From sequence record NC_048170.1: a stretch of 64,000 nucleotides of DNA. One strand, given 5' to 3'. Under the pieces are notes generated by a model, which was not told the DNA's origin, did no database searches, and worked only from the letters and a program-made list of their open reading frames with translations. The translations under genes were made by a program, and so were the position numbers. Below, in pieces: positions 29,878 through 44,161 of this stretch. Within the stretch, counting starts at the first letter, position 1, and every line of letters starts with the position of its first letter. Source of the DNA: Escherichia phage vB_EcoM_Goslar.

Positions 29878-30447
29878 TCAACGATTCTTCATCACTTTAC
29901 CCAGGCTTTCGATATTATCCCAAAAGCGATTTTTACTTGGTGCATCGCCAACGATGACCGACATCAAATCGCGACGTTCACGACTGATGATGCCTTGTGA
30001 TTTCCAGATCACCATCGTCCAGCAAGCTGCCAGAACGAACAGATGGTTAATGCTCGGTTTGGTTTGTGCGATGAACGCAAGCCATGCCCAGATACCGGTA
30101 TATACTATCGTCACTAAAAAGAGGGAGATTGTTGCAACGACAACAACGAAGTTTTGGACAGCGGGTTGATTCGCGTTATCATGAATAGCGGTAAGATCAG
30201 GAAGGTTACCTTCAACTGAACTCGTTTCATCGATTTCCAATTCTTCGATTTCTTTTCGTGTGTCGGGAGCTAATCCGGCATCATCAAGATGCTTTTTTAA
30301 CCGCTGTATACTTAATCGTTGACCGACAGGAATGTTGATGTTGTCGTAACTATTAAGCGCATCAACCAGGGAGCGTCCATCAACGAGAACCAAGCTCGCA
30401 GTACCCATTGTCTGCGGTTTTATTTTGTAAAGGTCTTTTACTTTCAT
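29878..30447 (-). CDS. Hypothetical membrane protein (189 aa)
   Basis: ORF track; long hydrophobic segments (VVVATISLFLVTIVYTGIWAWLAFIA). Confidence 0.7.
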   Translation of the reverse strand: MKVKDLYKIKPQTMGTASLVLVDGRSLVDALNSYDNINIPVGQRLSIQRLKKHLDDAGLAPDTRKEIEELEIDETSSVEGNLPDLTAIHDNANQPAVQNFVVVVATISLFLVTIVYTGIWAWLAFIAQTKPSINHLFVLAACWTMVIWKSQGIISRERRDLMSVIVGDAPSKNRFWDNIESLGKVMKNR

Positions 30448-30468: not shown

Positions 30469-33081
30469 TTAAGCGTCTGGTGTAAAATCAAAAGGAATGT
30501 CCGTACGAATGATATCATAACGTTTTCCTAATAAATAGAACTCTTCGGGAACCTGGCCGGGAATAATGCTATCGCCGATGAACTGCGGATACGCCCAGAT
30601 GTACTGAGTGAGTCCTTCGAACATATCCAGGTTATTTGCGTGGTTACCCATGATACGTTTCCAGAGTTCGCGTTTATACGGTGTTTTAACATCGAATCCA
30701 TAAAGCGGTGCAAGATCTTCACCAGGAACAAATCCCAGGTAATAATGGATCTGACTAACCGGGAAACCAAGCGTATCTCGCGGAATGGTGATCGCTTGCT
30801 CAGCCTTGGTGACATGCGTTTCAATAATCCAGTCGTAGCACTCCGAATAGAACCGATCGAATTTCTCTGGGTTATACCACGCTTTGGGAAGATTCAGTTT
30901 CTCCGTGAACGCGTTCGACATGATCGTCGGCAAGAACGGAAGAACGCCGGTTTTGATCTGCGTGTATTTCGATTTTACCCGGTTAACCAAATTCCAGCAA
31001 CTGTATCCTAATTGGTCGTTACAAAACTCAACGTAGAGATCGTAGTCACCACCGGATAACGGGTTGTTAATATCACCGATGTCTGCGGCGTATTTGTTGG
31101 GATATCGGTTATTGAAAGCCAGTTTGGTTTGGTAATCGTAGATACACGGTTTGTTGTTCGCTGTATTGATCCACCACCAGGGTTCACCTACTTGTACACA
31201 AATGTCCTGGACATGGGGGTAGATGATATCAGCAAACGCGGTTAACACATCCCCTAACCACGCCATCGCCTGTTGGTTACATGGAGACAGCAACCAGGAC
31301 GGTGGTGTATATCCGGTTGCTGCGATGTTTCCTTCCCAATCCTGCTGCGCCCACTCGAATGGACACGCCGTACTCATCAATTCGTAACTTAAACTGATGG
31401 TGACAGAGAAATGGTGTTTTGCAGCATATGCGGCGAAAGCTTCATGCCACGCGATACAGGGTGGATTTAATACATCCGTGGTGTTCACCAGTAACTTACC
31501 CGCACTTGGCGTCCAGACAGTATCGTAGAAATGCGACATTCCAACATAATGCACTAATTCATCCTGATATCCCGCATAAACCAGGTTTTCAAATACACGC
31601 TCTGGCGTGATGTTGTAATGGTCATCGTAAGCGGTTATCGCACGAAGTTCGTGTGGCGTACAATGATGGCGATTAACCGTCATTTCCTGATACACCCCAT
31701 CGATAGGAAGAATCTCGAGGGTTAAACCGAGGTCGATTGGCGTTTCCAGATAGGTCGTTTCAGTCGCATCTTCCTTATAATGTCGAGAACTCATGCTGAA
31801 CATCAACGACGTTACCGATTCAAGTTCGATAGGTTCGTCAGCATAGAACCCCGCCATTGCGTCATTGAAATCGATCGTCACGATTGCGCTTGTACCGTCT
31901 TCAGAGACGTCGGTCGCATATCGGGTTAATGAGATATACTGACGGCTATCGTCTTTGTGTACGATGGTTAGAACCGGCGGGTTTTCGGTATCTGCAAAGT
32001 TACGCTGATCGCCAGTAAACGTGATCTTCGCTTTAAAGATCAAACCGAATAACGACGTCATGGGATCATACGCAATACAACCGTGATCCAGCGTATCCGT
32101 TGTCCGCCATTCTATCCCGACCAACCCGTTAGCGGTATGGCATCGCATATACGCATTAAGGACCATGTCTTCACTGACAACCGCGAAGTTCTCTGTTGAC
32201 TGACCGTTGATAATCCAATACATCGGTTGCCAGAGGTTACGCGTACCTTTTGCGTAGCGGTAGGTTGGTGCGCCTTTAGGGTTGCCATTATTGAGATGGA
32301 ATACGGCAGTACCTTGATAATGGTCGTTCGTATTAATCGGAACACTGTAAGCATCACCGAGATCCGTACGTTCCACCTTCGTGACTGTTGCGTTTTCAAA
32401 CAACCCACGTAGCGCCGGTAAACCGATATCTTCAGGTGCGTTTTCTCGACGAATCGCATCCGCGATGCGGTGGGCTAAGGCGGGGTAAATGGCCTCACCC
32501 TGCTGTAGGTTTGCAAGACCTACAAAGCGATCGGGGTCGATGCCAGCAATCAATAACTCGACATCACCCTTCGTTCTATCGTCGTTAAGATATTTCAGTC
32601 CGGTAAGGTCAAGATGCTGAATAAGCGACAACAGGTTGTATTTACGGTTTTCAACAGTTAGTACAAGATCGCCTGCCCAAACCAAACTTCCCTCATCCGC
32701 TGTTACTTTAACGGATTGTCGGCCTGTGGTAGACGTTGTTGTCGTTTTATTTAATTGTCCTTGTAGGAAGTCGGTTGCGAGGTCAAAGGCAATGCCGTAA
32801 CGGTCAGCGACCGCTTGCATGATTTCACGTAACTGGGTATCTTCTTCAATGATAATCTTGATAGGTATTCCCAAGAACGCTTTAGCGAGGTCTCGTTTAA
32901 CCAACGAGACGAATACGGATTTGTAGTATCGGCTTCCATCTTTCCCTTTAAAAAGAATGGAGGTTGTTTCGGGTGCCGATAGAACACGTGCAAATTCAAC
33001 ATCGTCGAATGTAAGAGAAAGTCCGTTTTTCTCGTTGACCAATCTTAGTATTTCATTTTGCGCGGTTTCATGTAACTTCAT
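30469..33081 (-). CDS. Putative tail fiber / receptor-binding protein (870 aa) with N-terminal domain shared with 38868..39413 and 43211..44041
   Basis: N-terminal similarity (RDLAKAFLGIPIKIIIE versus RDIAKAFLGIPVKIVLE); Trp/Tyr/Gly-rich C-terminal part; position in the fiber locus. Confidence 0.55.
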   Translation of the reverse strand: MKLHETAQNEILRLVNEKNGLSLTFDDVEFARVLSAPETTSILFKGKDGSRYYKSVFVSLVKRDLAKAFLGIPIKIIIEEDTQLREIMQAVADRYGIAFDLATDFLQGQLNKTTTTSTTGRQSVKVTADEGSLVWAGDLVLTVENRKYNLLSLIQHLDLTGLKYLNDDRTKGDVELLIAGIDPDRFVGLANLQQGEAIYPALAHRIADAIRRENAPEDIGLPALRGLFENATVTKVERTDLGDAYSVPINTNDHYQGTAVFHLNNGNPKGAPTYRYAKGTRNLWQPMYWIINGQSTENFAVVSEDMVLNAYMRCHTANGLVGIEWRTTDTLDHGCIAYDPMTSLFGLIFKAKITFTGDQRNFADTENPPVLTIVHKDDSRQYISLTRYATDVSEDGTSAIVTIDFNDAMAGFYADEPIELESVTSLMFSMSSRHYKEDATETTYLETPIDLGLTLEILPIDGVYQEMTVNRHHCTPHELRAITAYDDHYNITPERVFENLVYAGYQDELVHYVGMSHFYDTVWTPSAGKLLVNTTDVLNPPCIAWHEAFAAYAAKHHFSVTISLSYELMSTACPFEWAQQDWEGNIAATGYTPPSWLLSPCNQQAMAWLGDVLTAFADIIYPHVQDICVQVGEPWWWINTANNKPCIYDYQTKLAFNNRYPNKYAADIGDINNPLSGGDYDLYVEFCNDQLGYSCWNLVNRVKSKYTQIKTGVLPFLPTIMSNAFTEKLNLPKAWYNPEKFDRFYSECYDWIIETHVTKAEQAITIPRDTLGFPVSQIHYYLGFVPGEDLAPLYGFDVKTPYKRELWKRIMGNHANNLDMFEGLTQYIWAYPQFIGDSIIPGQVPEEFYLLGKRYDIIRTDIPFDFTPDA

Positions 33082-33103
33082 TAAAAACCTCTGCCCTTTA
33101 GAA

Positions 33104-33745
33104 TTAGATGTACTGCTTACCGCCCACGAAGGAAGTTAACCAGTTACCCGAAACAAGCTGCGAAGCCCAGCCAGGCACTGCCCTACCGTTCTGACTCATG
33201 ATGTTACCACACCAACCAGGGAATCCGGGACGGATGTAATAGAAAGTTAAATTGTAGAGATGGCAATTCCATACCGCAACGTTATGTTTACCAGAAACCG
33301 CTTTAAAGATAAATGCGACAGGTAACGGAGACGATAACAATTCGGTCACAGGGACGGCTGACCAGTTCGCATTCGCGTTCCATGGCTGCCAGGTATGGCT
33401 ACGCGAGTCACCGTTGACGTTACCGTTGCTACCGCGTCCGCCCGCGTTCCACCATAGCGACGGACTCATGTTCTTAAGTGAGGTAAATTGCTGCGGTGGA
33501 ATATTCGGAATGATAACAGGGTTGGTACCTTGTCCGTGTTTCTTTTCTTTTGCGTTCACATAGCCGTTTATCGATTCCAGGTATTTGACACCAGGATAAT
33601 TGTTCTGGACTTGTGTCGCAATATCACGAACGTCGAACGTCCAGCAGATCATGGTGTTGTAGTAAGCGTCGGTGTTATCGTGCCATGAGTTACCATCTTG
33701 TAAACGTGCGCCACTATTCGGTGTTTTATCTGTACTTATAGCCAT
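33104..33745 (-). CDS. Hypothetical protein (213 aa), Trp/Asn/Gly-rich; possible fiber-tip accessory protein
   Basis: ORF track; composition; position between fiber genes. Confidence 0.6.
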   Translation of the reverse strand: MAISTDKTPNSGARLQDGNSWHDNTDAYYNTMICWTFDVRDIATQVQNNYPGVKYLESINGYVNAKEKKHGQGTNPVIIPNIPPQQFTSLKNMSPSLWWNAGGRGSNGNVNGDSRSHTWQPWNANANWSAVPVTELLSSPLPVAFIFKAVSGKHNVAVWNCHLYNLTFYYIRPGFPGWCGNIMSQNGRAVPGWASQLVSGNWLTSFVGGKQYI

Positions 33746-33883
33746 GGTCTTGTCCTATATGTTGGTGGTTGAGGTGGCGGATATCGGATGCGTGCTGGAC
33801 GTGAACCCTATAGTTCGCGCTATCGCCATTTTCTACCTCGTTTCTATTCTCAAAAAGGAAATTTCATACGATGACGCCATAGC

Positions 33884-33913
33884 AGCTCCTCCTTCCCTGA
33901 CGGGTTGGAGGAG
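33884..33913 (-). terminator. Stem-loop (GCTCCTCC / GGAGGAGC) downstream of the lipoprotein gene
   Basis: Inverted repeat followed on the minus strand by a T-rich tract. Confidence 0.5.
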
Positions 33914-33922
33914 CATACTTAA

Positions 33923-34426
33923 TTACTTACTGATAACCTCAACGGAATTGGGATCAGCGATCAACGCACGATCGGTAGAACAATTGAAGAAGACCATGCC
34001 AACACCATCGCCGTTCGAGTTCAGGGTTGAACTTGCGTAAGACAATGTTGGTTTATTCATGCGGTAGAAGCGTTCGCTGGTTGCGGTATTGAACCCCAGA
34101 TCAACGTAGTCTTTCACCGTGGTATACAACTGGGTGGACTCGAAAACGGTTACCGGAGAGTCGACGGTAAACTGACTACCTTCATCCACAACCAGAACTT
34201 TATCGTTCCAGATTTCAGTGGTTGAAAACTTCGGTTTCCAATGTTCGAATTCCTGGGTTGCGCCCCAGCAGGAATACACAGCGAGATTGCTGTTCTTCTC
34301 AACAGGTTTCAACCCCACCAGTTGTGTCAGGTCTTTATCCAGGTTCGGTAAGCCTTCCAGCGTAGCGCACCCACCCAGAGAAAGCACCATCAACATACCA
34401 AGAATAATCGCGCAAAGTTTCTTCAT
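33923..34426 (-). CDS. Putative lipoprotein (167 aa)
   Basis: N-terminal signal peptide with lipobox (MKKLCAIILGMLMVLSLGGC). Confidence 0.7.
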   Translation of the reverse strand: MKKLCAIILGMLMVLSLGGCATLEGLPNLDKDLTQLVGLKPVEKNSNLAVYSCWGATQEFEHWKPKFSTTEIWNDKVLVVDEGSQFTVDSPVTVFESTQLYTTVKDYVDLGFNTATSERFYRMNKPTLSYASSTLNSNGDGVGMVFFNCSTDRALIADPNSVEVISK

Positions 34427-34470
34427 CGTCGGATTTCCTTATGTGTTAACGGAAGTGATTTCCATAGTAA

Positions 34471-34911
34471 TTACTTAGCAGCAGGAAATTCCGGCCAATC
34501 GATATTTGGTGCAGCATCGGTATCGACAGCCGACACCGCGTCAACGTAATCCAAAACGGCGTTAAGTCGGGTCGTTTCTTCCGGAGTCAGTTTTCGCCCA
34601 GCCCGTAATTTTAACTGAATAAGATCGATGGAAGCCAGCGAAGAATCAATCAAAGATTGTTTTATCTGTTCTGCCTCGGCGACAAGTTCTTCGTGTTGCC
34701 GCTCGGGTTCCGGAGGCGCGATAAACTCGCCGTTTGAGTATAACCAACCTATTCCAGGTGACACAGCTGCCGTATCGCTAATGCTAACCAGCTGCTGATT
34801 GTCGAATATATCGAGCTCTGCTTCACCATCGTAAACAATCGTGTTTACTACCACTCCATTTTCAATAACAGCGTATAATGTACTCATTACATAAACTCCT
34901 CGATGATGCAA
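34471..34911 (-). CDS. Tail fiber assembly chaperone (Tfa-like)
   Basis: C-terminal VSAVDTDAAPNIDWPEFP closely matches the lambda Tfa C-terminus (LNRVDTSTAPDIEWPAVP); 25-nt overlap with the tail fiber gene. Confidence 0.8.
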   Translation of the reverse strand: MHHRGVYVMSTLYAVIENGVVVNTIVYDGEAELDIFDNQQLVSISDTAAVSPGIGWLYSNGEFIAPPEPERQHEELVAEAEQIKQSLIDSSLASIDLIQLKLRAGRKLTPEETTRLNAVLDYVDAVSAVDTDAAPNIDWPEFPAAK

Positions 34912-37900
34912 ATCCCATTAGCACCACGCCCACCAGGCTTAGCGGTTCCTGAGTAAGAGTTATCGTAAGCACCACCACCACCCGAACCAGGCGCGAGGCC
35001 GTTATGGGCGGTGCCAACACCAGCGCGACCGCCACCGCCCCAATATGACGCACCCCCACATCCACCGACGGCAATAGTACCGGCTTGTCCATCGCTACCG
35101 TCTCCGCCCGGAATGCGTATATCCCCGGTAGCAGGTGCGCCCCCATAGCCACCGCCAGTGTTTGTGACAGTTGTTTTTCCTGCGCCTTGCCCGCCGGGAG
35201 CAGTTAGCAGGGATGCAAATTTACTATCCCCACCCCCGTTCCCAGACGTCGCCCCAGAGCCACCGGAACCACCAGAACCAATTATAACAGAATAACTAGC
35301 AGCTGTTACCGTTATAACCGAAATTACTGTTCCGCCAGCTCCTCCCCCAGCACCAAAAAACGTTTCGCTGTTGGAATAAGCCTGACAGCCACCGCCGCCA
35401 CCGCCGCCACCGGTTATTGTTACTCTAATCCGTTTTGTTCCTTGTGTTGGAGTGTACGTCCCTGACGATGTGAAAACACGCATGTTCAGTAAACGTCCGA
35501 CATATCCGCTAGAATCGGCTAAACCAAGATCTTTAGCTGCTAACGTGATATTAGCTGTACCATCGAAAGGTTTACCGTTAATCGTGCGCGCAGTTTGCAA
35601 CTTCGTCGCCGTGGCTGCGTTCCCTGATGTATTCTGGTTCCCCGCGACGTTAACACCTGGTAGATTGATGTTCGCACTACCGTCGAAAGACACCCCACCA
35701 ATGGTGCGGGCTGTTTTCAGTTTTGTCGCCGTGGCGGCATTCCCCGTAGTGTCTTGGTTTCCTGCTGCGTTAACACCCGGCAGACTGATATTTGCCGTAC
35801 CATCGAACGCGACACCGCCAATCGTCCTTGCCGTTTGTAGTTTTGTCGCCGTGGCGGCATTACCGGTTGTGCTTTGGTTACCGGTGGTGTTTACCCCAGG
35901 TAGGCTGATATTTGCTGTTCCGTCAAATGAAACGCCGCCAATCGTCCTTGCCGTTTGCAACTTCGTTGCGGATGCCGCGTTCCCCGTGGTGTTTTGGTTA
36001 CCTGTTGCATTCACACCAGGGATACTATCCTTAGATGTATAGATCTGTGCCCATTCCGACCAATTCGAATCGGCTGCATCCCGACGAGAACGAAGATAGG
36101 CTGGCGCATGCGCCCCCGATGTACCAGACCATCCAATAAGGATCTCACCTTCACCTACTGCGGTTGCGCCTTTAAGATGAATAATATTGCCGTACGCTGT
36201 AGGGTATCCGTTATTGTACGCTTCATACATCTGGATACCCGTATTGCTACCCTGGGTCGCATTAGCTAAAGCGGTGACCCGTCCCTTGGAAGCGAGCACG
36301 TTAATGCTAAAGCTAATATCAGTTGTACCGTCAAAGGCGACCCCATTAATCCTCCGTGCCGTTTGGAGTTTCGTGGCAGTAGCCGCATTACCAGAAGTGC
36401 TCTGGTTACCCGCTTTGTTCACACCCGGTAAATCAATGTTGGCAGTCCCATCAAACGACACACCCCCTATGGTTCTCGCCGTCTGGAGTTTTGTTGCTGA
36501 ACCGGCGTTTCCGGAAGTGCTTTGATTGCCCGCGGCGTTGACACCAGGTAGGTTAATGCTAGCAGAACCATCAAAAGAAACTCCACCGATCGTAATGGTC
36601 GTTTGCAACTTCGTGGCTGTCGCAGCGTTACCCGTCGTATTCTGATTACCAGCTGCATTGACGCCAGGTAATGCGATATCAGTTGTACCGTCAAAAGCGA
36701 CACCACCGATTTTACGGGCGGTCTGTAGCTTGGTTGCGCTTCCTGCGTTTCCGCTGGTGTCTTGGTTTCCTGCAGCGTTAACACCCGGTAGACTGATGCT
36801 GACCGAACCATCGAAACTCACACCACCGATCGTAACAGCGGTTTTCAATTTCGTGGCAGTAGCTGCGTTACCGGTTGTATTTTGATTGCCTGTCGCATTA
36901 ACGCCCGGTAATGCAATATCCGCTGTTCCGTCAAAGGCAACGCCACCGATTCTACGTGCAGTTTGTAGCTTGGTCGCTGTAGCGGCATTACCGCTGGTAT
37001 TTTGCGTGCCTGCTTTATTTACACCGGGAAGATCGATGTTAGCAGAACCGTCGAAGCTAACGCCACCTATCGTTCTTGCCGTAGCAAGTTTAGCTGCTGT
37101 AGCAGCGGCGTTACCGACTTTTAACCATTCGCCCCATGGACCATCCTGGCCGTTCCATGATGCCGTTAAACTACGTACGTAAATATTGCCGGTACGTACA
37201 GTGTAACGTTGTGTTCCACCGAATTGCCCGGTTGGGAGCACTTCAATGTAACCTGCGGCGTTTGCTTCAGGGAAATTGTGGGCGACGTCCGCGTTCGTCG
37301 TTATTGGTTTAGACCAAATACCCACAGATGCTTCGACTGGACCGAAGGTATTCAGATTTGCGTCCGTCGCCATAGCACCATTAAATTTCAGGTACGTCTC
37401 TGGCGATAATCCGATCGTTTTAGCAAACGCAACTTTATCTACGATATCACTACCGTTATTCCCTGCCTGCAATGCTGTCTTAGCTGCCTTTATGGTTTCT
37501 GTCAATCCAAGATACAGTAAGACCGCATCAACGCTTCCTTTGCTTAGCAGATTCAGACCTGTTGACGTTACGTTAGTTAGCCCGATTTGGTTCCGTCCAG
37601 TAAAATAAGGGAGTTTATTCGCATCTGTTGTTAGGTTAGACCACGCGGTCAGCAACGCGTTCAACGGTTGTTTACCCGCCAACGCATTGGTTACTGTCGT
37701 TGCGAAATTAGGATCGTTCCCTAAAGCTTGAGCCAGCTCATTAAGCGTATTTAGCGCTTCTGGAGACGAGTCGATCAGCGATGCGATAGCACGCATCACA
37801 AATTCCGTGTTGGCAATCTGTCGACTGCTATCGTTCTCTGCAGCCGTAGGCGCTGCCGGGATACCGGTGAACACAGGGCTATTAAGATCTGCCTTGAGAG

Positions 37901-38861
37901 CGATGAGACGTTTAAGTGCGTCGACATCGACTTTCAGGTTTTCCCATCCGATGAGAGAACCACCACTGGCGTTATGATAACGGTTGTACCAGAAGTCGCC
38001 GTTAACGCCAAAAAAGAATATACCTTTCTCTTCGTATTGTGGGCCAGAACTATTTCGTGATGTTTCGATATATTTGATTTCAATAAGACCGCTAAACACC
38101 ACTCCTGGGATTATATTGTTGTTTCCAGCTGACTGTGATACCTGGTAAATCCCCGGGGTTGCGGCTTTAACCCATGTTAAGAATTCTGTTACTCCAGCGG
38201 CACCGCTAAAATTCTTAACGTCGGTAAGTATCGCCCCATAACCGAACATACCGGGTAGAGCCACTCGTTCGCTGGTACGGTCACGAATATCTGTCGCAAC
38301 AACGGGCAATTGTTTACGAACAGCATTAACCGCTTTAGGCGTGGCCGATTTTGTCTCGTCGTCGCTATCGGTTTCATTACTTAGAATAGTTAAACCGCGT
38401 GTAGCAGTAGTTGCATCAGGAAGAAATGCGTTATCCAACACCTTAAGCTGTATTGCACTCGTATTACTAACAACGACATGCACCTGACAGTTAAGAACGC
38501 TGGTTGCGCCTTCGGCAGGCGTAGGCTTATATCTTTCTGGCGCACTGCAGACGGCAATCAGAACACCTTGGTCATCATACAGACCGATCTCACGTACCCA
38601 GAACCCACCTTGACCAGCGGGAATAATACCCTCAACGATAATCCTGGTTGTGCTATCACCATCCGCATGGATATTAGAAACTTCCCCACGATAAACTTCG
38701 TGAACAAGCGCTGTTTGGCTGGCGGTCGGGGTTGGGATCGAGCCGTTACCATCACCAACGGCAAAGTGTGTGATTTTTAGTTTCTCACCGTCGGGAAGTA
38801 ACGCAGCGGTGATACGTTCTGCTCCTTTATCGGTAACTACCGTTATATATGCTGTACTCAT
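34887..38861 (-). CDS. Tail fiber protein (1324 aa): conserved fiber N-terminal domain, eleven 40-aa repeats, polyglycine-rich C-terminal region
   Basis: N-terminus resembles lambda Stf / P2 gpH-type fibers (RGLTILSNETDSDDETKSATPKAVNAV); repeats of GNAATATKLQTARTIGGVSFDG; Tfa gene immediately downstream. Confidence 0.85.
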   Translation of the reverse strand: MSTAYITVVTDKGAERITAALLPDGEKLKITHFAVGDGNGSIPTPTASQTALVHEVYRGEVSNIHADGDSTTRIIVEGIIPAGQGGFWVREIGLYDDQGVLIAVCSAPERYKPTPAEGATSVLNCQVHVVVSNTSAIQLKVLDNAFLPDATTATRGLTILSNETDSDDETKSATPKAVNAVRKQLPVVATDIRDRTSERVALPGMFGYGAILTDVKNFSGAAGVTEFLTWVKAATPGIYQVSQSAGNNNIIPGVVFSGLIEIKYIETSRNSSGPQYEEKGIFFFGVNGDFWYNRYHNASGGSLIGWENLKVDVDALKRLIALKADLNSPVFTGIPAAPTAAENDSSRQIANTEFVMRAIASLIDSSPEALNTLNELAQALGNDPNFATTVTNALAGKQPLNALLTAWSNLTTDANKLPYFTGRNQIGLTNVTSTGLNLLSKGSVDAVLLYLGLTETIKAAKTALQAGNNGSDIVDKVAFAKTIGLSPETYLKFNGAMATDANLNTFGPVEASVGIWSKPITTNADVAHNFPEANAAGYIEVLPTGQFGGTQRYTVRTGNIYVRSLTASWNGQDGPWGEWLKVGNAAATAAKLATARTIGGVSFDGSANIDLPGVNKAGTQNTSGNAATATKLQTARRIGGVAFDGTADIALPGVNATGNQNTTGNAATATKLKTAVTIGGVSFDGSVSISLPGVNAAGNQDTSGNAGSATKLQTARKIGGVAFDGTTDIALPGVNAAGNQNTTGNAATATKLQTTITIGGVSFDGSASINLPGVNAAGNQSTSGNAGSATKLQTARTIGGVSFDGTANIDLPGVNKAGNQSTSGNAATATKLQTARRINGVAFDGTTDISFSINVLASKGRVTALANATQGSNTGIQMYEAYNNGYPTAYGNIIHLKGATAVGEGEILIGWSGTSGAHAPAYLRSRRDAADSNWSEWAQIYTSKDSIPGVNATGNQNTTGNAASATKLQTARTIGGVSFDGTANISLPGVNTTGNQSTTGNAATATKLQTARTIGGVAFDGTANISLPGVNAAGNQDTTGNAATATKLKTARTIGGVSFDGSANINLPGVNVAGNQNTSGNAATATKLQTARTINGKPFDGTANITLAAKDLGLADSSGYVGRLLNMRVFTSSGTYTPTQGTKRIRVTITGGGGGGGGCQAYSNSETFFGAGGGAGGTVISVITVTAASYSVIIGSGGSGGSGATSGNGGGDSKFASLLTAPGGQGAGKTTVTNTGGGYGGAPATGDIRIPGGDGSDGQAGTIAVGGCGGASYWGGGGRAGVGTAHNGLAPGSGGGGAYDNSYSGTAKPGGRGANGICIIEEFM
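35544..37106 (-). repeat. In-frame tandem coding repeats (120-bp unit, about 6.6 + 4 copies, interrupted at 36024..36314) within the tail fiber gene
   Basis: Periodicity read from the translated protein; explains the spurious antisense ORFs 35452..37182. Confidence 0.85.
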
Positions 38862-38867
38862 GGTGTT

Positions 38868-39413
38868 TTATCCTGGATAAATAGTGATGATATCACCAAT
38901 GACGGTTGTGGCACCGGCGTAAAGATGAGCCGGAGATACATCGTGTTGGTTTGTCACAGTAAGATCCAATCGACCACGCCAAACCACGGAGGTATTCGCG
39001 ATGGGGATAGAAATCTTTTTGGATATATCGTCACGAAAATCAATAACAGTGGCAAGGGTAACCGCATCAAAATCAACGTCGGGGTCAAAGACGAACCCGT
39101 ATTGATCTGAAATCGCCCGAATAATCGCATGTATAGTTGTTGTCTCGACGGACTCTAAAACGATTTTTACCGGTATTCCTAAAAATGCCTTCGCGATATC
39201 GCGTCGAGCGTAAACGATAAAACTTTCACCACACCACTTTGTTCCTTCATTTGCTGTGACGATCACTTTTGCCCTGTTAGCACCAGAACTCCCATCCAAG
39301 GTTAATGTAAGATCGGAGTTGCTGAACACGCTACCGTTACGTTGGTTTATCAACGTAATCAGTTCGTCTTTCCATGGCGGGTAAAGTGAACGCATAAGCG
39401 CACCCTCCTCCAA
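38868..39413 (-). CDS. Short paralog (181 aa) consisting essentially of the N-terminal domain shared with 30469..33081; possible adaptor
   Basis: Alignment by eye across about 150 aa with the N-terminus of the 870-aa protein. Confidence 0.65.
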   Translation of the reverse strand: MEEGALMRSLYPPWKDELITLINQRNGSVFSNSDLTLTLDGSSGANRAKVIVTANEGTKWCGESFIVYARRDIAKAFLGIPVKIVLESVETTTIHAIIRAISDQYGFVFDPDVDFDAVTLATVIDFRDDISKKISIPIANTSVVWRGRLDLTVTNQHDVSPAHLYAGATTVIGDIITIYPG

Positions 39414-39600
39414 TAATCAAATTAAAATGTAAAACGCCTCGAAACCGGAGTGCGATTCGAGGTAAACGTAAACAGTCCAGACGACCGCATAAAATTCCGC
39501 GCATATTGCCCCTCTACCCCGACAAAGCGAGATAGAGGGGAGGATAATACGATTATGCTACTACACTCCAAAGTTCATGGGGCGGTAATCGCCCCATCGG

Positions 39601-42600
39601 TTAAATTGTTGGTTTTACATCGCGTAATAGGGCGATATAATAGCCTAATCCTCGGAGGATCTCCCCGCTCCAGAAACCAAAATACATTCCGTCTCTGCCG
39701 AGATTAGCGCTATCTGGTGCAGGACTCCATCCACCATTCATTACGTCATCAACGGTGTAGCGGTTGATGTAGTTTTCAACGATTTCGTTATAAGCATTAA
39801 CCGCAACAGAATAGCCTTTATCGTTGGGATGTCCGTACAACATTGCTAACGACGCACCCGCCAACCATAATCCTGCCATATGACCAGTAAAGTCGTTCGG
39901 GATAAAAGCAGGAGGTTTATCCATCGGAAAATCCGTAGGTGATTGATAAGCGTTTTCCTGTTGATACGTAAACAAGAAATCAATCCAATGACTGATGTAA
40001 GTGGTTAACTTCTCAGGGACAGCCAAACCACGATCGAGCAGTCCAGCATAAAGCCTCACCGCTGAAAAGAAAGCCCTCGGCTGATAACCAGACCATGCTG
40101 TCTGATCGCCGAAATGGTACATCGTAAAATCATTAACTTTTGATCCGCTTGGCGCATCCCAACGATCCCACACGTACGCACTTGCCCCTGGCCCTAAAAC
40201 CCCGAATTTCTGATAATACCACTGCTGTGAGTCATACCAGAAATTCACAACATTCTGAATCATGAGGTCACGTCGTTCAGCCGATACGTCCATATCCAGG
40301 AAGACCCATGGATGCTGGTAGCCGGGATAAGGCTGACCGCGCCAACTGTCGAACGTCGGTGCGTTAGGGATATAGTTGTTAGAGAACGGAATAATACCCG
40401 GAGTATAAGGCAATGGATCCAGACGTTGGTTGACAATCGTACAATCGCCAACACGCAATGTGCCCTCTGCCTCAAAGATTGCTTTTAACGTAAACAGCAT
40501 GGTATATCCGTCATCCGTGGTGTAAGTTGACGGTGGATTGTTGATGGCGTAAAGCTTAAATACCCCTTCAGCGATATCGCTGCCATCAGGCAAGAACAGA
40601 ATTTCAGTTGAACCGTCGCCCCACACAGGTGCGGAAGGTTTAGGGTCAGTATCAGCATGGCCAGGTTGATACCCTGAGAGCCTCCATCCGTTCGCCGAAA
40701 GCGTCAATGTATTTCTTGCTGTGGTGGCCGGTAGCATATACCACCATCGCCAACCATTTGCATCTTCTACACGAACGTTGTAGTCAATCGACGCGAAATA
40801 ACTGACCTGTCTTACGATCTGTTTTGCGGTTGGATTGAATTCAAATTGCCCGCCTGCCGCAGTAAGCTGCGCTTTTAAGAACAACCCATCCCAGGAATCT
40901 TCCGCTGCTTCGCTGAATTCTGTTGTGATTGCGACATCGTCTTTCCAGCCGACTTTATCAGCCGATATCAACACAGAACCTGTAACAGCATCACCGGTTG
41001 GCGTTGAAACTTCATCAACCGCATCAGCAGGAATCAACGAGCCTATTTTGAAATCCCATCCTTTCGGTTCAGCGCTGGAAGGTAATACCAGCTTGTACGT
41101 TTTGGCTTTCGCTTCGGTTTTGTCCAAAGAAAGCGAAAGTGAAATCTCAACCGGAATTGCAATACCTGCCGTATCCTTACCTCCGCAGGTTACACGAAGA
41201 ATTGAATCACGATTGACGCGGAACGGAATGGCCTGCTGTTCAAGATAAATTTGTGCTGAAGATGCTTGAATCACGATCCAGCCATCGGCATCACGTGTGA
41301 TTGTGAACGGTGCTTTCGATGGATAGGTATACGTGTAAGCGATACCATCGGTGTCGTAACGATCGGTTCCTTTTACCTGACGGAAGAACTTATCGTTGGC
41401 GTCGATACGGGTATATTCTTCAATCGTAAACAAAGATGCCTTGTACGCTTTCTGATAACGCTCCTGCTGCGTTAAACGGTATAAGGTGTAGGCTGCTTCA
41501 CAAAACCACTGTTCAGCGTCTGACGCGTTTCCCATGTAGTCTCTGGTGACCGGCACCTGGATCGGTCGGTTATGCTGACACTCGTTCGTTTTGATGAGGT
41601 ATCCGCCATATTCGACAGGAACGCGGGGTGCCCACGCAACCAAATAAGAACCGCTGACGGATTTATCTTTGAGTACGATGGTACCTACCTCATCGTCAGT
41701 ACACGCTTCAAGATCGTCCCCGTCAGCACTTACGTAACGTTTTGTGCGTAACGCAACTTTCTCGATAGGGAACACCGTACCCTTTGTATCCCAGTCAATC
41801 GTCCCATCATCATTGGTTTTGAACACATCGGCGTTCAAATTCTGCCAGCCGAGTTTACCCTCATAGACCTGAACAACAAGATCCATGTATTCCCCGAACG
41901 TTGGTGCCCCATGTGTTATTTTCCCGATACCGTTGGTGAATGTAACCGCTGTGTCATGGAAACCCCCGTGTGTTGGGTAATCGTCTTTTGCAAGAGGATA
42001 ATGAGCCAACACCGGTTGCTTACCATTAACGATCCAGTTAGCGATCCAGCGTGTCGGTGTATCCGGTGGTTCAAGGCCTGCGTAGAACGCTTTTATATAC
42101 GCATCGAACGATGACTCTGCTAATGCGAGATAATGCGCTTTAAGCTTGGTATCATCCGTTGTATGACTGAATATACCCGCACCCAGAATTAACAACGACT
42201 GTCCTTCTGTTGTTGCGTCACCATCCGGTTGTGCTTCTTGTCGTGTTGCTGCAATGAAATGGCGGTTGTTTACCATCACCCCGCTTTCATTTAACACGTA
42301 ATGATCGGTTTCTGGATCGGTAAACGTTCCTGTGTTTCGGGTTAAGAATCTTGCATGACCATAACCAACGAAATTAACCGGCGACGCTGTAATCATCCAT
42401 TTACCGATAAGTTGAGCAACATCATTATAACGCTCGGATGCGGTGATTTGTTTCACGTACCAGTCTTTATGGTTAAATGTCCAAAGCAGGAAGTAATAAG
42501 TTGTATCGATTTCCATCACCGGGAACGTTGGTGTTAACGGCTCCAATGTTAAGTAGTTGCTCCAGTCAATCTGTCCGCCAACAACCGATGGGGTAATCTC

Positions 42601-43197
42601 TAATAACTGACACCATTCATAACGGTCCGGTACACTACTGGACGTTGTTGGTAAAGGTAACTTGTATACACCAGTACGATTCAGATTGAGTGCTTTTCTA
42701 GCCGATCCTAAATCAACATAAATGCTCGATGATACGCTTGCACTATATGCCCCCAAAGCACCTAGCGTTGACCGATACATTGAGATGAACAACGTATCTT
42801 TCCAGTAAGGGTTATCCTTGGTTGGTTCTAAAGCGATTTGTGCGGAGATGCTGTTCCATGTCCCTAACTGGTATGTTGCATTTAAAGATTCTTCCGTGAA
42901 ATAACTTTCTGCAATTGCCAGATGGAACCGCTCGTTCAATAATGCGAGTGCGGCGCGTCCTGAGATATCTTCATTACCCGTTTCCTTCTTCATGATTGCG
43001 CCGAATGGAAACAGTGTCGCGAATGACCGTTTTGGTTTATTAACCGTAACCGTCCCCGTGTAGTTTCCAACACCGTCAAGTTTTTGACTATCGCCAACAG
43101 CAGTGACTGCGATACCATCAACCGGGATATCTGTTTTGTTTAGTGTATTGAGTTGGTCAACCAGATCCTGCTTATCGTCAGGTAAGAATGTCGCCAT
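39601..43197 (-). CDS. Large putative receptor-binding or tailspike-like protein (1198 aa)
   Basis: ORF track; Trp/Tyr/Gly-rich carbohydrate-binding-like composition; locus context; no catalytic motif recognised. Confidence 0.5.
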   Translation of the reverse strand: MATFLPDDKQDLVDQLNTLNKTDIPVDGIAVTAVGDSQKLDGVGNYTGTVTVNKPKRSFATLFPFGAIMKKETGNEDISGRAALALLNERFHLAIAESYFTEESLNATYQLGTWNSISAQIALEPTKDNPYWKDTLFISMYRSTLGALGAYSASVSSSIYVDLGSARKALNLNRTGVYKLPLPTTSSSVPDRYEWCQLLEITPSVVGGQIDWSNYLTLEPLTPTFPVMEIDTTYYFLLWTFNHKDWYVKQITASERYNDVAQLIGKWMITASPVNFVGYGHARFLTRNTGTFTDPETDHYVLNESGVMVNNRHFIAATRQEAQPDGDATTEGQSLLILGAGIFSHTTDDTKLKAHYLALAESSFDAYIKAFYAGLEPPDTPTRWIANWIVNGKQPVLAHYPLAKDDYPTHGGFHDTAVTFTNGIGKITHGAPTFGEYMDLVVQVYEGKLGWQNLNADVFKTNDDGTIDWDTKGTVFPIEKVALRTKRYVSADGDDLEACTDDEVGTIVLKDKSVSGSYLVAWAPRVPVEYGGYLIKTNECQHNRPIQVPVTRDYMGNASDAEQWFCEAAYTLYRLTQQERYQKAYKASLFTIEEYTRIDANDKFFRQVKGTDRYDTDGIAYTYTYPSKAPFTITRDADGWIVIQASSAQIYLEQQAIPFRVNRDSILRVTCGGKDTAGIAIPVEISLSLSLDKTEAKAKTYKLVLPSSAEPKGWDFKIGSLIPADAVDEVSTPTGDAVTGSVLISADKVGWKDDVAITTEFSEAAEDSWDGLFLKAQLTAAGGQFEFNPTAKQIVRQVSYFASIDYNVRVEDANGWRWWYMLPATTARNTLTLSANGWRLSGYQPGHADTDPKPSAPVWGDGSTEILFLPDGSDIAEGVFKLYAINNPPSTYTTDDGYTMLFTLKAIFEAEGTLRVGDCTIVNQRLDPLPYTPGIIPFSNNYIPNAPTFDSWRGQPYPGYQHPWVFLDMDVSAERRDLMIQNVVNFWYDSQQWYYQKFGVLGPGASAYVWDRWDAPSGSKVNDFTMYHFGDQTAWSGYQPRAFFSAVRLYAGLLDRGLAVPEKLTTYISHWIDFLFTYQQENAYQSPTDFPMDKPPAFIPNDFTGHMAGLWLAGASLAMLYGHPNDKGYSVAVNAYNEIVENYINRYTVDDVMNGGWSPAPDSANLGRDGMYFGFWSGEILRGLGYYIALLRDVKPTI

Positions 43198-43210
43198 TAT
43201 TTACTCCACC

Positions 43211-44041
43211 TTAATCGTAACTAAAATAAAGTTTGCTGCTGACGCCGCTATCGGAACGAGGTTTTAATACCAGAACAGAGCTTCCGAACGACGGAAGTAT
43301 TGGAACATCTAAATCGTTCGCATCGGCAACTTTTCCATTATAAACGACATTGGCTGTTGTGATGAGTTCCCAAGCTAAGGTATAACTCATTGAAATCAGC
43401 GACGAGGCTAAACGGAATGCGTTGTATCCTTCTGGAGTATCTCCAACCGACATCGAACGTATCGCATCTTGCGGCGGTAAATTTAGCTTGATGCCGTAGG
43501 TGCTGAATGTGTGGAAATCCCCTTGTTTACTATCTTCTGGATAATACGAGGTTAGCGGTTCTCGCACCGTAATCAGTTCGCTAATATCGGTACTTACATC
43601 TTTTCGTGCGAGGAATTGAAACGTACCGTGCCATGATGCCGACGCGTCAGAACGAACGGGAACAGATATGGTTTTCTCGCCGCTTTCAAATTTAACCTGT
43701 GACGCTAACGCTGAAGAATCAAAGATCGTTAAATCGATCTTCAACCCATACTTCTTAAACAGCTGCGTTAAGCAGTCTGCTATCGTCGTCTTATCAGCAA
43801 CGACAATAAAAGGTTGGTGTTTGATAAAGAGCTTATTAATGTCTCGACGTTGAAGATAAACCTGTACGGGGTCTTCGACGTAGTAAACCGATTGTGGTGC
43901 AGGGGCTATAGAAAGGCGTAACCGACCCGATGCACCATACCAGGCTGGCGTTAACGTAATGTCTGACAGGGACAACGGATGCTGGAGATAGGCGTTTATT
44001 TTAGATAACACTTCCTCCTGCCATGATGCTTCAGGATACAT
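43211..44041 (-). CDS. Hypothetical protein (276 aa) with weaker similarity to the shared N-terminal domain
   Basis: ORF track; pattern similarity (RRDINKLF...YG...D...TISVPV). Confidence 0.65.
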   Translation of the reverse strand: MYPEASWQEEVLSKINAYLQHPLSLSDITLTPAWYGASGRLRLSIAPAPQSVYYVEDPVQVYLQRRDINKLFIKHQPFIVVADKTTIADCLTQLFKKYGLKIDLTIFDSSALASQVKFESGEKTISVPVRSDASASWHGTFQFLARKDVSTDISELITVREPLTSYYPEDSKQGDFHTFSTYGIKLNLPPQDAIRSMSVGDTPEGYNAFRLASSLISMSYTLAWELITTANVVYNGKVADANDLDVPILPSFGSSVLVLKPRSDSGVSSKLYFSYD

Positions 44042-44099: not shown

Positions 44100-44161
44100 C
44101 AAAAAAAAAAACGAAAAAAAAAATAGGAAAACGGTGTTCATCCCTAAAAAGGATGAACACC
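44100..44161 (-). terminator. Strong rho-independent terminator (11-bp perfect hairpin GGTGTTCATCC / GGATGAACACC with long T tracts on the minus strand)
   Basis: Perfect inverted repeat and poly(A) on the + strand, directly downstream of the gene ending at 44183. Confidence 0.75.

What the first reader, a model, noticed from the sequence alone, without database searches (positions are those of the whole stretch)
30469..44041. Receptor-binding locus with three proteins sharing one N-terminal domain, including a domain-only short paralog
The 870-aa protein (30469..33081), the 181-aa protein (38868..39413) and more weakly the 276-aa protein (43211..44041) share an approximately 150-aa N-terminal module. 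They lie beside a 1198-aa carbohydrate-binding-like protein and the repeat-rich tail fiber with its chaperone. This looks like a modular system in which a common anchor domain docks different distal domains, as in branched fibers or multi-tailspike phages. The 181-aa protein is the anchor domain alone, so it could be an adaptor or a decayed copy.
Basis: partly seen in the sequence, partly recalled or inferred. Interest (0 to 1): 0.6.

Follow-up and report, generated by a model that had tools for sequence, protein, structure and literature searches.

The report
Shared anchor domain on Goslar fibre proteins

Summary
The 870-aa, 175-aa and 276-aa proteins share an N-terminal module (BLASTP E 3e-21, 7e-12, 1e-3), and all three pass the Pfam threshold for PF25613 (DUF7941).

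The window is Escherichia phage Goslar, and these proteins are gp86, gp91 and gp93. The 1198-aa "neighbour", gp92, has a diverged copy at residues 2-145 (family HMM E 6e-8, next window ORF E 1.7; hhalign 97%).

A model of gp91 matches one solved structure only: the phiKZ gp127 N-terminal domain, in the outer peripheral baseplate.

A 2026 preprint (Basu et al.) lists exactly these proteins among ten Goslar DUF7941 proteins. It detects them in virions and proposes head-to-tail filaments that carry carbohydrate-binding domains.

The "common anchor, variable heads" reading is therefore largely right. The "decayed copy" option for gp91 is not:
- the 175-176-aa ORF is conserved in relatives;
- dN/dS is 0.1-0.46;
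- domain-only proteins make up about 30% of the family.

New here are natural deletion variants and a chimeric gp91 recombined within the module.

Verdict: already known, moderate interest.

The parts
43211..44041 (-). gp93, 276 aa. It is DUF7941 only: N-terminal domain, linker and C-terminal domain. It lies 13 nt upstream of gp92.
   Evidence: Pfam PF25613 36.9 bits. Family HMM E 1e-33. BLASTP vs gp91 E 7e-12. About 4.8 copies per virion in preprint Table S4.
42763..43197 (-). Diverged DUF7941 N-terminal domain of gp92 (residues 1-145).
   Evidence: Family HMM E 6e-8, residues 4-140, next window ORF E 1.7. hhalign of gp92 orthologs vs the family: 97% probability, E 8e-11, 139 columns. The L002 ortholog hits PF25613 at 23 bits, below the 27-bit cut-off. 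Signature residues N17, R57, F63, F100, L105 and W132 are invariant in the 19-sequence alignment. The preprint lists gp92 as a DUF7941 protein.
39601..42762 (-). Remainder of gp92 (1198 aa in all). From about residue 280 on it is a horizontally shared fibre / receptor-binding region.
   Evidence: tblastn: residues 280-1196 are 42-49% identical to tail or tail-fibre proteins of Serratia phage PCH45, phAPEC8-like phages and PBECO4-like jumbo phages. phrog_2871 'tail protein', E 2e-296. About 4.9 copies per virion.
39396..39600 (-). Structured 205-nt intergenic spacer between gp92 and gp91. It separates the gp93-gp92 pair from the gp91-gp90 pair.
   Evidence: RNA fold shows an 8-bp GC hairpin directly after the gp92 stop and a 13-bp hairpin; z = -2.47, and 0 of 200 shuffles fold as well. 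Relatives carry an extra 584-aa DUF7941+DUF285 gene between gp92 and gp91. No remnant of it is left here.
38868..39395 (-). gp91, 175 aa. [quoted passage not shown] It lies 6 nt upstream of the fibre gene gp90.
   Evidence: Identical to Goslar gp091. PF25613 57.6 bits, covering only model positions 7-154. AF2 model: pLDDT 72, globular 7-150, disordered 153-167, strand 168-172. [quoted passage not shown] About 1.2 copies per virion from 2 peptides.
34887..38861 (-). gp90, 1324 aa. A P2 gpH-type tail fibre with many ~45-aa repeats and a glycine-rich tip. It has no DUF7941.
   Evidence: Pfam Phage_tail_fib 141.5 bits, Phage_fiber_2 and Gly_rich_2. About 43 copies per virion. The tip, residues ~1050-1324, is swapped in relatives.
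34471..34911 (-). gp89, tail fibre assembly chaperone. The true start is probably the internal ATG near 34887.
   Evidence: Pfam Caudo_TAP 73.1 bits; PHROG 188/3792.
32236..33081 (-). DUF7941 region of gp86 (residues 1-282): N-terminal domain, linker and C-terminal domain.
   Evidence: PF25613 152.7 bits, residues 2-277 against model positions 2-275 of 276. Family proteins 193-1478 aa long (mostly 467-1478) share only the first ~180-300 residues with gp86.
30469..32235 (-). Head of gp86 (residues 283-870). It resembles N4 gp65/gp64 and has GMSHF at the position of the GMSHY motif associated with binding the N4 glycan receptor (NGR).
   Evidence: Pfam NCTSP_N 42.6 bits and TIM-barrel_NCTSP 286 bits. 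PDB 9lc0 N4 gp64 E 5e-30 and gp65 E 5e-7. 40% identity over 570 aa to Justusliebigvirus VEcB tail fibre vecB_139, starting at that protein's residue 109. About 4.5 copies per virion.
44131..44163 (-). Terminator-like hairpin between gp94 and gp93: a 15-bp stem followed by a T-rich run. It is the upstream boundary of the gp93-gp92 pair.
   Evidence: Consensus scan. Function is inferred only.

Best explanation
The window comes from Escherichia phage Goslar, a nucleus-forming chimallivirus. The locus gp93-gp84 is its host-recognition cassette.

Four of its proteins (gp93, gp92, gp91, gp86) start with the DUF7941 N-terminal domain. This is a ~150-residue alpha/beta globule followed by a flexible linker, with or without a small C-terminal domain.

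Shown:
- the homology of all four;
- the N-terminal position of the module;
- fold identity of gp91 with the phiKZ gp127 N-terminal domain;
- the horizontally shared nature of the gp86 and gp92 heads.

From the literature:
- In phiKZ, one gp127 caps each of the six gp139 baseplate spokes.
- Goslar gp22 polymerises in vitro.
- AlphaFold3 predicts that the linker and C-terminal domain of one protomer dock on the N-terminal domain of the next.
- All four proteins are found in virion preparations. gp86, gp92 and gp93 are each at about 5 copies, roughly one per spoke.

Inferred mechanism: the module is a self-linking connector rooted on the peripheral baseplate. gp86 and gp92 are links of such chains, possibly the distal ones, that display glycan-binding or glycan-processing heads. 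gp93 (full module) and gp91 (N-terminal domain plus linker, like the abundant gp23) are head-less links.

The pairs gp93/gp92 and gp91/gp90 are tightly spaced, with gaps of 13 nt and 6 nt. Adjacent genes probably encode successive partners, as proposed for phiKZ gp126/gp127.

The shared module also serves as a substrate for recombination that adds, deletes or swaps heads.
For: Identity of the window: the gp91 sequence is identical to Goslar_00091. A multisubunit phage RNA polymerase beta subunit lies nearby.

Homology.

Fold: the gp91 model hits only 9xqd_0 (E 3.9e-7, TM 0.52/0.59). That entry is the phiKZ outer peripheral baseplate, and it includes gp127, which terminates each gp139 band. The preprint gives gp127's modelled part as residues 1-150, the length of the matched chain.

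Family architecture: 287 clusters, module at residues 1-150, lengths 146-1703 aa. Of the best 149, 44 are domain-only (140-200 aa), 27 are about 260-320 aa, and 72 are longer than 320 aa. The long members carry LRR, Gp38-adhesin, lectin or propeller domains. Some have 2-3 tandem modules in one chain, which fits modules being arranged in series.

Heads shared with unrelated phages begin right after the module: at gp86 residue 283 and gp92 residue 280.

The pairing of a ~280-aa DUF7941 gene directly upstream of a large fibre protein with a diverged N-terminal domain also occurs in the distant chimallivirus PCH45 (E 2e-30 and 2e-11).

Between Goslar and the L002 lineage, gp93 (52-76% identity) and the first ~200 residues of gp92 (62-86%) diverge together, while the gp92 head stays at 80-100%, mostly 90% or more.

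Literature: ten Goslar DUF7941 proteins, gp22 filaments, AF3 head-to-tail dimers and copy numbers.

Recombination within the module: the L005 gp91 is a chimera with its crossover at the RRDIAKAF motif.
Against: - No DUF7941 protein is resolved in the Goslar baseplate map. Attachment in Goslar is therefore extrapolated from phiKZ.
- Head-to-tail docking rests on AlphaFold3 predictions and negative-stain images of gp22 alone. I could not run multimer predictions.
- gp91 is barely detected (about 1.2 copies, 2 peptides), so it may not be a stoichiometric virion part.
- The same virion preparation also contained nucleus-shell and PhuZ material, so low-copy detections are weak evidence of incorporation.
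- Pfam itself does not call gp92.
- The gp92 N-terminal model is poor (pLDDT 46) and was built with family members in its alignment, so its match to 9xqd_0 (E 4e-4) is not independent evidence.
- The co-divergence of gp93 with the gp92 N-terminus rests on one lineage comparison.
- The genetically defined receptor of Goslar on K-12 is LPS core GluII. That does not implicate either glycan head.
Confidence: 0.7

Rival explanations
1. Each paralog docks independently, through the shared domain, onto equivalent sites of the baseplate, as in multi-tailspike phages. gp91 acts as an adaptor at such a site.
For: In phiKZ, the gp127 N-terminal domain sits directly on the last gp139 dimer of each spoke, giving six sites. 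gp86, gp92 and gp93 are each at about 5 copies per virion, close to six.
Against: Goslar has ten paralogs and more than 2,500 DUF7941 chains per virion (gp23 about 2144, gp22 about 577), far more than six sites can hold. gp22 alone forms filaments. Some family proteins have tandem modules. No sequence or fold link to the adaptor domains of CBA120/G7C-type systems was found. The two models are not exclusive: the first link of a chain must dock on the baseplate.
Confidence: 0.2
2. gp91 is not a filament link. It is a dedicated partner of the conventional fibre gp90. It is either an adaptor that ties the P2-type fibre to the DUF7941/baseplate network, or an assembly factor that mostly stays out of the virion.
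For: gp91 lies 6-8 nt upstream of the fibre gene in all five related loci that still contain that junction. This holds even where gp93/gp92 are deleted or an extra gene is inserted. A structured 205-nt spacer separates gp91-gp90 from gp93-gp92. gp91 is low in virions (about 1.2 copies) while gp90 is at about 43. The C-terminal tail of gp91 is strongly conserved.
Against: No fusion of DUF7941 to a Phage_tail_fib domain was found among the seven long family members checked. Homologs are structural proteins. The divergence of gp91 (59-65% identity) is only loosely mirrored by the gp90 N-terminus (66-86%). No interaction test was possible.
Confidence: 0.2
3. gp91 is a decaying duplicate of the anchor domain with no function.
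For: It lacks any distal domain and the C-terminal half of the Pfam model. It is barely detected in virions.
Against: Most of the 35 90%-identity clusters found carry an intact 175-176-aa ORF, down to 59% identity; the shorter hits are partial sequences or lie on very short contigs. The complete ORFs sit on contigs of up to about 240 kb. dN/dS is 0.10-0.46. The C-terminal tail is conserved. Domain-only proteins of 140-200 aa are 44 of the 149 best family clusters. The architecture matches gp23, the most abundant DUF7941 protein.
Confidence: 0.03

Closest known systems
Goslar DUF7941 protein family as described by Basu et al., bioRxiv 10.64898/2026.04.21.720040 (April 2026)
   Same: It is the same object. 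The preprint lists gp86, gp91, gp92 and gp93 among ten Goslar DUF7941 proteins. It notes carbohydrate-binding, glycoside-hydrolase or LRR domains after the module in gp86, gp92 and gp161. It detects the proteins by mass spectrometry and proposes head-to-tail filaments anchored at the peripheral baseplate.
   Different: As far as I read it, the preprint does not discuss the following:
- the gene-pair arrangement;
- natural deletion and chimera variants in relatives;
- the exact donors of the heads (N4 gp64/gp65 and Justusliebigvirus fibre; PCH45/phAPEC8/PBECO4 fibre);
- the lipoprotein signal peptide of gp88.

Its claim that the module is exclusive to chimalliviruses is qualified by a report of DUF7941 in Spiroplasma Spaid-like proteins.
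phiKZ gp127 (with gp126), outer peripheral baseplate, PDB 9XQD (Nat Commun 2026, PMC13250141)
   Same: The N-terminal fold is the same: the gp91 model against 9xqd_0 gives Foldseek E 3.9e-7 over 150 columns. It is one protein per star lobe, at the end of the gp139 spoke. An adjacent-gene partner, gp126, was fitted head-to-tail by the Goslar preprint.
   Different: Only 14% sequence identity. The phiKZ proteins carry no large receptor-binding heads. Goslar's own DUF7941 proteins are not resolved in its map.
phiKZ gp131-gp135 fibre paralogs that share a gp131-like N-terminal segment
   Same: The design principle is the same: paralogs with a common N-terminal attachment segment and different C-terminal domains, mounted on the outer baseplate.
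   Different: It is a different module (helical bundle, hetero-hexamer). Homology with DUF7941 is not claimed and I did not test it here.
Branched multi-tailspike systems (CBA120 TSP1-4, G7C gp63.1/gp66, SP6/K1-5 adaptors); from my own knowledge
   Same: Several receptor-binding proteins with different specificities are mounted on one virion through conserved N-terminal attachment modules.
   Different: No sequence or fold similarity was detected. Those systems use trimeric tailspikes docking on one another at fixed stoichiometry. They do not use a polymerising monomeric module present in thousands of copies.
N4 gp65 'non-contractile tail sheath' / gp64 (PDB 9lc0) and the NGR-binding fibres of Justusliebigvirus and Vequintavirus
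   Same: The gp86 head has the same domains: PF23844 and PF23845, gp64 E 5e-30, and 40% identity over 570 aa to VEcB vecB_139.
   Different: In gp86 the head is mounted on a DUF7941 anchor. In VEcB the anchor is a 108-aa N-terminus, and in N4 the context is the sheath. The motif reported as perfectly conserved in NGR binders, GMSHY, reads GMSHF in gp86. Goslar's screen-defined receptor is LPS GluII, not NGR.

Membership tests
Pfam PF25613 (DUF7941) | Whole-protein score at or above the curated gathering score of 27 bits | tested here: met
   gp86 152.7 bits, gp91 57.6 bits, gp93 36.9 bits.
Pfam PF25613 (DUF7941), gp92 specifically | Score at or above 27 bits, or failing that, significant profile-level homology to the family | tested here: inconclusive
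   The Pfam threshold is not met: there is no hit at E<=0.01 for gp92, and the L002 ortholog scores 23 bits. However, the custom family HMM gives E 6e-8 with the next ORF at 1.7, hhalign gives 97% and E 8e-11, and the signature residues are conserved. I accept it as a diverged member. It is not a Pfam-threshold member.
DUF7941 family | Module located at the extreme N-terminus, followed by a linker and variable C-terminal parts | tested here: met
   All four window proteins, and nearly all of the 150 best family clusters, match from residue ~1 to ~150. In the gp91 model the disordered linker is at residues 153-167.
DUF7941 family | N-terminal domain fold as in phiKZ gp127 (PDB 9XQD) | tested here: met
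   gp91 model: 9xqd_0 is the only hit with E<=0.001 (E 3.9e-7, probability 1.00, TM 0.52/0.59). gp92 model: the same single hit but weak (E 4e-4), from a low-confidence and non-independent model.
DUF7941 family | Present in virions | not testable with these tools
   Literature only. LFQ mass spectrometry gives gp92 about 4.9, gp93 about 4.8, gp86 about 4.5 and gp91 about 1.2 copies per virion. The preparation also contained non-virion assemblies.
DUF7941 family | Head-to-tail self- or hetero-association (linker and C-terminal domain onto the next N-terminal domain) | not testable with these tools
   No multimer prediction was available. The support is indirect: tandem modules within single chains, gp22 filaments and AF3 dimers in the preprint.
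Chimalliviridae (phiKZ-like nucleus-forming phages) as genomic context | Multisubunit phage RNA polymerase genes; identity with a named member | tested here: met
   gp91 is identical to the Goslar protein QBO63884.1. phrog_2962 RNA polymerase beta subunit, E 3e-106. The best relatives are jumbo phages at 30-34% identity.
N4 gp65-type 'non-contractile tail sheath' receptor-binding domains (PF23844 / PF23845), gp86 head | Both Pfam domains above threshold; similarity to solved N4 gp64/gp65 | tested here: met
   42.6 and 286.1 bits against a cut-off of 27. 9lc0 gp64 E 5e-30 and gp65 E 5e-7.
NGR (N4 glycan receptor)-binding fibres | Perfectly conserved GMSHY motif in the gp65-like segment (bioRxiv 10.64898/2026.04.02.716166) | tested here: not met
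   gp86 reads GMSHF at the aligned position, while N4 gp65 and VEcB vecB_139 read GMSHY. Goslar's receptor in the RB-TnSeq screen is LPS GluII. gp86 therefore works like, but is not shown to be, an NGR binder.
Multi-tailspike branched adaptor systems (CBA120 / G7C type) | Homologous N-terminal adaptor domains (T4 gp10-like or similar) | tested here: not met
   No Pfam, PHROG or NCBIfam hit of that kind. Foldseek against the PDB gives no significant hit other than phiKZ 9xqd.
P2 gpH-type tail fibre plus lambda-gpK/Tfa-type chaperone (gp90, gp89) | Phage_tail_fib N-terminal domain; Caudo_TAP chaperone encoded directly downstream | tested here: met
   PF12571 141.5 bits and PF02413 73.1 bits.

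The most novel reading that the evidence does not exclude
The paralogous DUF7941 modules may be more than structural connectors. They may be the genetic device by which these phages gain, lose and exchange receptor-binding heads. On this reading:
- recombination between modules of neighbouring genes, with its crossover at the conserved RRDIAKAF motif, makes chimeras and deletes the head in between;
- gene order encodes assembly order, so each small DUF7941 gene specifies the link that carries the product of the next gene (gp93 carries gp92; gp91 carries the conventional fibre gp90).
Probability: 0.3. Interest if true: 0.5.

Novelty: already known. Interest (0 to 1): 0.3.

Why it matters
How chimalliviruses recognise hosts is poorly understood, and their peripheral baseplate is still largely unmodelled. 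A single connector module that mounts interchangeable glycan-binding heads would explain how these phages diversify host range, and it gives a handle for engineering it. However, the family, its members in this locus and the model have been public since April 2026. The value of this analysis is independent confirmation plus some evolutionary detail: deletion variants, a chimeric gp91, the donors of the heads and the gene-pair organisation.

Tried and rejected
- Megablast of the whole locus and tblastn of gp91 against the phage collection found nothing. Goslar is evidently absent from that collection. The identification came from an exact protein look-up instead.
- An HMM built from only the three window paralogs did not detect gp92. 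Pfam did not either. hhalign of the single gp92 sequence against a shallow alignment was marginal (E 0.016). Only the deep family profile resolved it.
- A homolog search with the gp92 N-terminus returned only two near-identical fragments. A scan of viral contigs gave one close relative.
- The AF2 model of gp92 residues 1-290 was low confidence (pLDDT 46) and used family members in its alignment, so I treat it as weak and non-independent.
- I tested gp88 (very abundant in the virion preparation) as a hidden DUF7941. It is not (hhalign E 0.22; not among the HMM hits).
- I looked for a remnant of the relatives' 584-aa DUF7941+DUF285 gene in Goslar's gp92-gp91 spacer. There is none.
- I looked for DUF7941 fused to a P2-type fibre domain, which would link gp91 to gp90. 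None was found among seven long family members.
- NCBIfam gave nothing for any small protein of the locus.
- The sigma-70 promoter scan was below the shuffle expectation and is uninformative for a phage with its own RNA polymerases.

Full report
**What is in the sequence**

Between 29.5 and 44.0 kb, all genes run on the minus strand. In transcription order they are:

| Coordinates | Size | Gene |
|---|---|---|
| 43211..44041 | 276 aa | gp93 |
| 39601..43197 | 1198 aa | gp92 |
| 38868..39395 | 175 aa | gp91 |
| 34887..38861 | 1324 aa | gp90 |
| 34471..34911 | 146 aa | gp89 |
| 33923..34426 | 167 aa | gp88 |
| 33104..33745 | 213 aa | gp87 |
| 30469..33081 | 870 aa | gp86 |
| 29878..30447 | 189 aa | gp85 |
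| 29494..29868 | 124 aa | gp84 |

The protein that is conserved and annotated starts at the ATG at 39395 and is 175 aa.

**Check of the observation**

- The 870-aa and 175-aa proteins align over 148 residues at 31% identity, E 3e-21.
- The 175-aa and 276-aa proteins align over 147 residues at 29%, E 7e-12.
- The 870-aa and 276-aa proteins match more weakly, E 1e-3 over 82 residues.
- All three exceed the Pfam gathering threshold for PF25613, DUF7941 (152.7, 57.6 and 36.9 bits against 27).
- The 870-aa protein covers the whole 276-position model and the 276-aa protein covers positions 63-244. The 175-aa protein covers only positions 7-154.

The similarity is therefore real, sits at the stated places, and is far beyond chance.

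**Identity of the window**

An exact-sequence look-up shows that the 175-aa protein is Goslar_00091 of Escherichia phage vB_EcoM_Goslar. Goslar is a 237-kb nucleus-forming chimallivirus. A phage multisubunit RNA polymerase beta subunit lies at 24080..25378, which is consistent.

The local phage collection does not contain Goslar, which explains the empty nucleotide and tblastn searches. The genes map to gp84-gp93 as tabulated above.

**A fourth member**

I surveyed 1.84 billion representative proteins with a profile of the module. This found 287 clusters at E<=1e-3. From about 135 of the diverse N-terminal domains I built a family HMM and searched every six-frame ORF of the window. It found gp91 (E 3e-49), gp86 (9e-49), gp93 (1e-33) and gp92 residues 4-140 (6e-8). 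The next ORF scored E 1.7.

A profile-profile comparison of gp92 orthologs with the family gives 97% probability, E 8e-11, over 139 columns. The family's signature residues are retained in gp92: N17, R57, F63, F100, L105 and W132 in gp92 numbering.

Pfam itself misses gp92. An ortholog scores 23 bits, just under threshold. My AF2 model of its N-terminus was poor and not independent, so I rest this point on the sequence profiles.

**Fold and location of the module**

An AF2 model of gp91 (pLDDT 72) shows three parts: a globular alpha/beta domain at residues 7-150, a disordered stretch at 153-167, and a short C-terminal strand.

Against 350,542 PDB chains it has one significant match, chain 0 of 9XQD, "outer peripheral region in the phage phiKZ baseplate" (E 3.9e-7, 150 columns). 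The phiKZ paper places one gp127 per star lobe, where the band of five gp139 dimers ends. The preprint states that gp127 is modelled there as residues 1-150, the same length as the matched chain.

**What is already published**

A bioRxiv preprint of April 2026 (Basu et al., 10.64898/2026.04.21.720040) describes the family:
- Ten Goslar DUF7941 proteins: gp22, 23, 31, 33, 34, 86, 91, 92, 93 and 161.
- Carbohydrate-binding, glycoside-hydrolase or LRR domains after the module in gp86, gp92 and gp161.
- Purified gp22 forms filaments.
- AlphaFold3 predicts head-to-tail docking of one protomer's linker and C-terminal domain on the next protomer's N-terminal domain.
- A proposed "fibre cloud" anchored on the peripheral baseplate.

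Its Table S4 gives these copy numbers per virion:

| Protein | Copies per virion |
|---|---|
| gp23 | ~2144 |
| gp22 | ~577 |
| gp90 | ~43 |
| gp92 | ~4.9 |
| gp93 | ~4.8 |
| gp86 | ~4.5 |
| gp91 | ~1.2 (two peptides) |

The finding as such is already known.

**The heads**

*gp86.* Residues 283-852 carry Pfam NCTSP_N and TIM-barrel_NCTSP. They match N4 gp64 (E 5e-30) and gp65 in PDB 9lc0. They are 40% identical over 570 residues to tail fibre vecB_139 of Justusliebigvirus VEcB, beginning at that protein's residue 109.

A second 2026 preprint links this gp65-like segment, with a perfectly conserved GMSHY motif, to binding of the N4 glycan receptor (NGR). gp86 has GMSHF at the aligned place. The same study assigns Goslar's receptor on K-12 to the LPS core glucose II. 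gp86 therefore resembles an NGR binder but is not shown to be one.

*gp92.* Residues 280-1196 are 42-49% identical to fibre proteins of PCH45, phAPEC8-like phages and PBECO4-like phages.

In both proteins, similarity to foreign phages starts right after the ~280-residue DUF7941 region. This marks the junction between anchor and head.

**Family-wide architecture**

The module is N-terminal in almost every cluster. Of the best 149:
- 44 are domain-only proteins of 140-200 aa;
- 27 are about 260-320 aa, matching the full Pfam model;
- 72 are longer than 320 aa.

Family proteins 193-1478 aa long (mostly 467-1478) share only the first 180-300 residues with gp86. Long members add BspA-type LRR, Gp38 adhesin, ConA-like lectin or beta-propeller domains. 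Two have two or three tandem modules in one chain.

This supports "one connector, many heads". The tandem copies fit modules arranged in series.

**Is gp91 decayed?**

No.
- Most of the 35 clusters found at 90% identity hold an intact 175-176-aa ORF, down to 59% identity. The shorter ones are partial sequences or come from very short contigs.
- Pairwise dN/dS is 0.10-0.46.
- The C-terminal tail (…GDxITIYPG) is almost invariant.
- Its architecture, N-terminal domain plus linker at about 19 kDa, equals that of gp23, the most abundant DUF7941 protein.

**Comparative genomics (new here)**

I examined five related loci.
- L002 has the Goslar order plus an extra 584-aa DUF7941+DUF285 gene between gp92 and gp91.
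- L003 and L004 carry a deletion. It leaves gp93 residues 1-214 and a 255-aa remnant of gp92 (residues 929-1170).
- L005 lacks gp93 and gp92 altogether.
- In L005 the "gp91" is a chimera. Residues 1-75 are 88% identical to the N-terminus of the 584-aa protein, and residues 76-176 are 84% identical to ordinary gp91. The crossover lies at the conserved RRDIAKAF motif. This is also visible at the DNA level.

Recombination between paralogous modules thus removes or reshuffles heads.

gp91 always lies 6-8 nt upstream of the fibre gene. In Goslar, gp93 lies 13 nt upstream of gp92. The two pairs are separated by a structured 205-nt spacer. A strong terminator-like hairpin precedes gp93.

The pair [quoted passage not shown] recurs in the distant phage PCH45.

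Between Goslar and L002, gp93 and the first ~200 residues of gp92 are divergent (52-86% identity), while the gp92 head is at 80-100%, mostly 90% or more. This suggests the small protein and its neighbour's N-terminal domain evolve as a unit. That inference rests on one lineage comparison.

**Most likely mechanism**

*Shown:* four homologous N-terminal modules; a fold shared with a phiKZ outer-baseplate protein; heads acquired horizontally.

*From the literature:* polymerisation of gp22; predicted head-to-tail docking; virion association.

*Inferred:*
- The module roots on the end of the gp32 spokes and links to further modules.
- gp86 and gp92, at about six copies each, are head-bearing links.
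- gp93 and gp91 are head-less links.
- Adjacent genes encode adjacent links.

I put 0.7 on this overall picture. The idea that gp91 is specifically the partner of fibre gp90 gets 0.2. Decay of gp91 gets 0.03.

**Verdict**

- Novelty: already known, through Pfam PF25613 and the April 2026 preprint.
- Interest is moderate to low (0.3) because the central point is published. The recombination and gene-pair observations are modest additions that remain to be tested.

Noticed in passing
window 33923..34426 (-), gp88: gp88 starts MKKLCAIILGMLMVLSLGGC|ATLEG. That is a lipoprotein signal peptide with a lipobox (Cys20, Ala at +2). The preprint lists gp88 at about 737 copies per virion with no predicted function. 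It lies inside the receptor-binding locus. It could be a T5 Llp-like lipoprotein that masks the receptor or excludes superinfection, and it may co-purify in membrane debris rather than being a virion part.
   Followed up: partly
window 29878..30447 (gp85) and 44183..44761 (gp94), both (-): gp85 has two long hydrophobic, transmembrane-like segments, and gp94 has an N-terminal one. gp85 is reported at about 4.6 copies per virion, the same as its upstream neighbour gp86.
   Followed up: no
L005:5426-5956 (also proteins P0033, P0030): The gp91 ortholog here is a recombinant. Residues 1-75 derive from the N-terminus of the 584-aa DUF7941+DUF285 gene (88% identity) and residues 76-176 from ordinary gp91 (84%). 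The crossover is at the RRDIAKAF motif.
   Followed up: yes
L003:6635-8054 and L004:6099-7518: A natural deletion of roughly 2.9 kb leaves gp93 residues 1-214 and a 255-aa remnant of gp92 (residues 929-1170). L005 lacks both genes entirely. The gp93-gp92 pair is therefore dispensable in some lineages.
   Followed up: yes
L002:8147-9901 (also in L003 and L004); corresponds to window 39396..39600: Relatives carry an extra 584-aa protein (DUF7941 plus PKD-like plus DUF285 repeats) between gp92 and gp91. Goslar has only a structured 205-nt spacer there, with no remnant of the gene.
   Followed up: yes
window ~31530..31545 (-), gp86 residues 513-517: gp86 has GMSHF where N4 gp65 and Justusliebigvirus VEcB fibre vecB_139 have GMSHY. 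A 2026 preprint reports that motif as perfectly conserved in phages that bind the N4 glycan receptor. The same study gives Goslar's K-12 receptor as LPS core GluII.
   Followed up: partly
window 34887..35700 (-), gp90 tip, and gp89; L002:10537-15753: The fibre tip (gp90 residues ~1050-1324) is swapped between relatives. Goslar has a glycine-rich tip plus a separate Caudo_TAP chaperone. The L002 lineage has a Peptidase_S74-type tip, no TAP gene, and an extra 255-aa paralog of gp87 at that position.
   Followed up: partly
proteins P0129 (1537 aa) and P0171 (1343 aa): Some family members have two or three tandem DUF7941 modules in one polypeptide, followed by a T-even Gp38 adhesin domain.
   Followed up: partly
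literature, PMC13375240: DUF7941 is reported in Spaid-like proteins of Spiroplasma, and by InterPro in Salmonella records. The statement that it is exclusive to chimalliviruses may therefore be too strong. The Salmonella and E. coli records I saw are most likely Goslar-like phage contigs about 240 kb long.
   Followed up: no
window 44131..44163 (-): A 15-bp perfect hairpin followed by a T-rich run lies between gp94 and gp93. It is the strongest terminator-like site in the 17 kb scanned.
   Followed up: no
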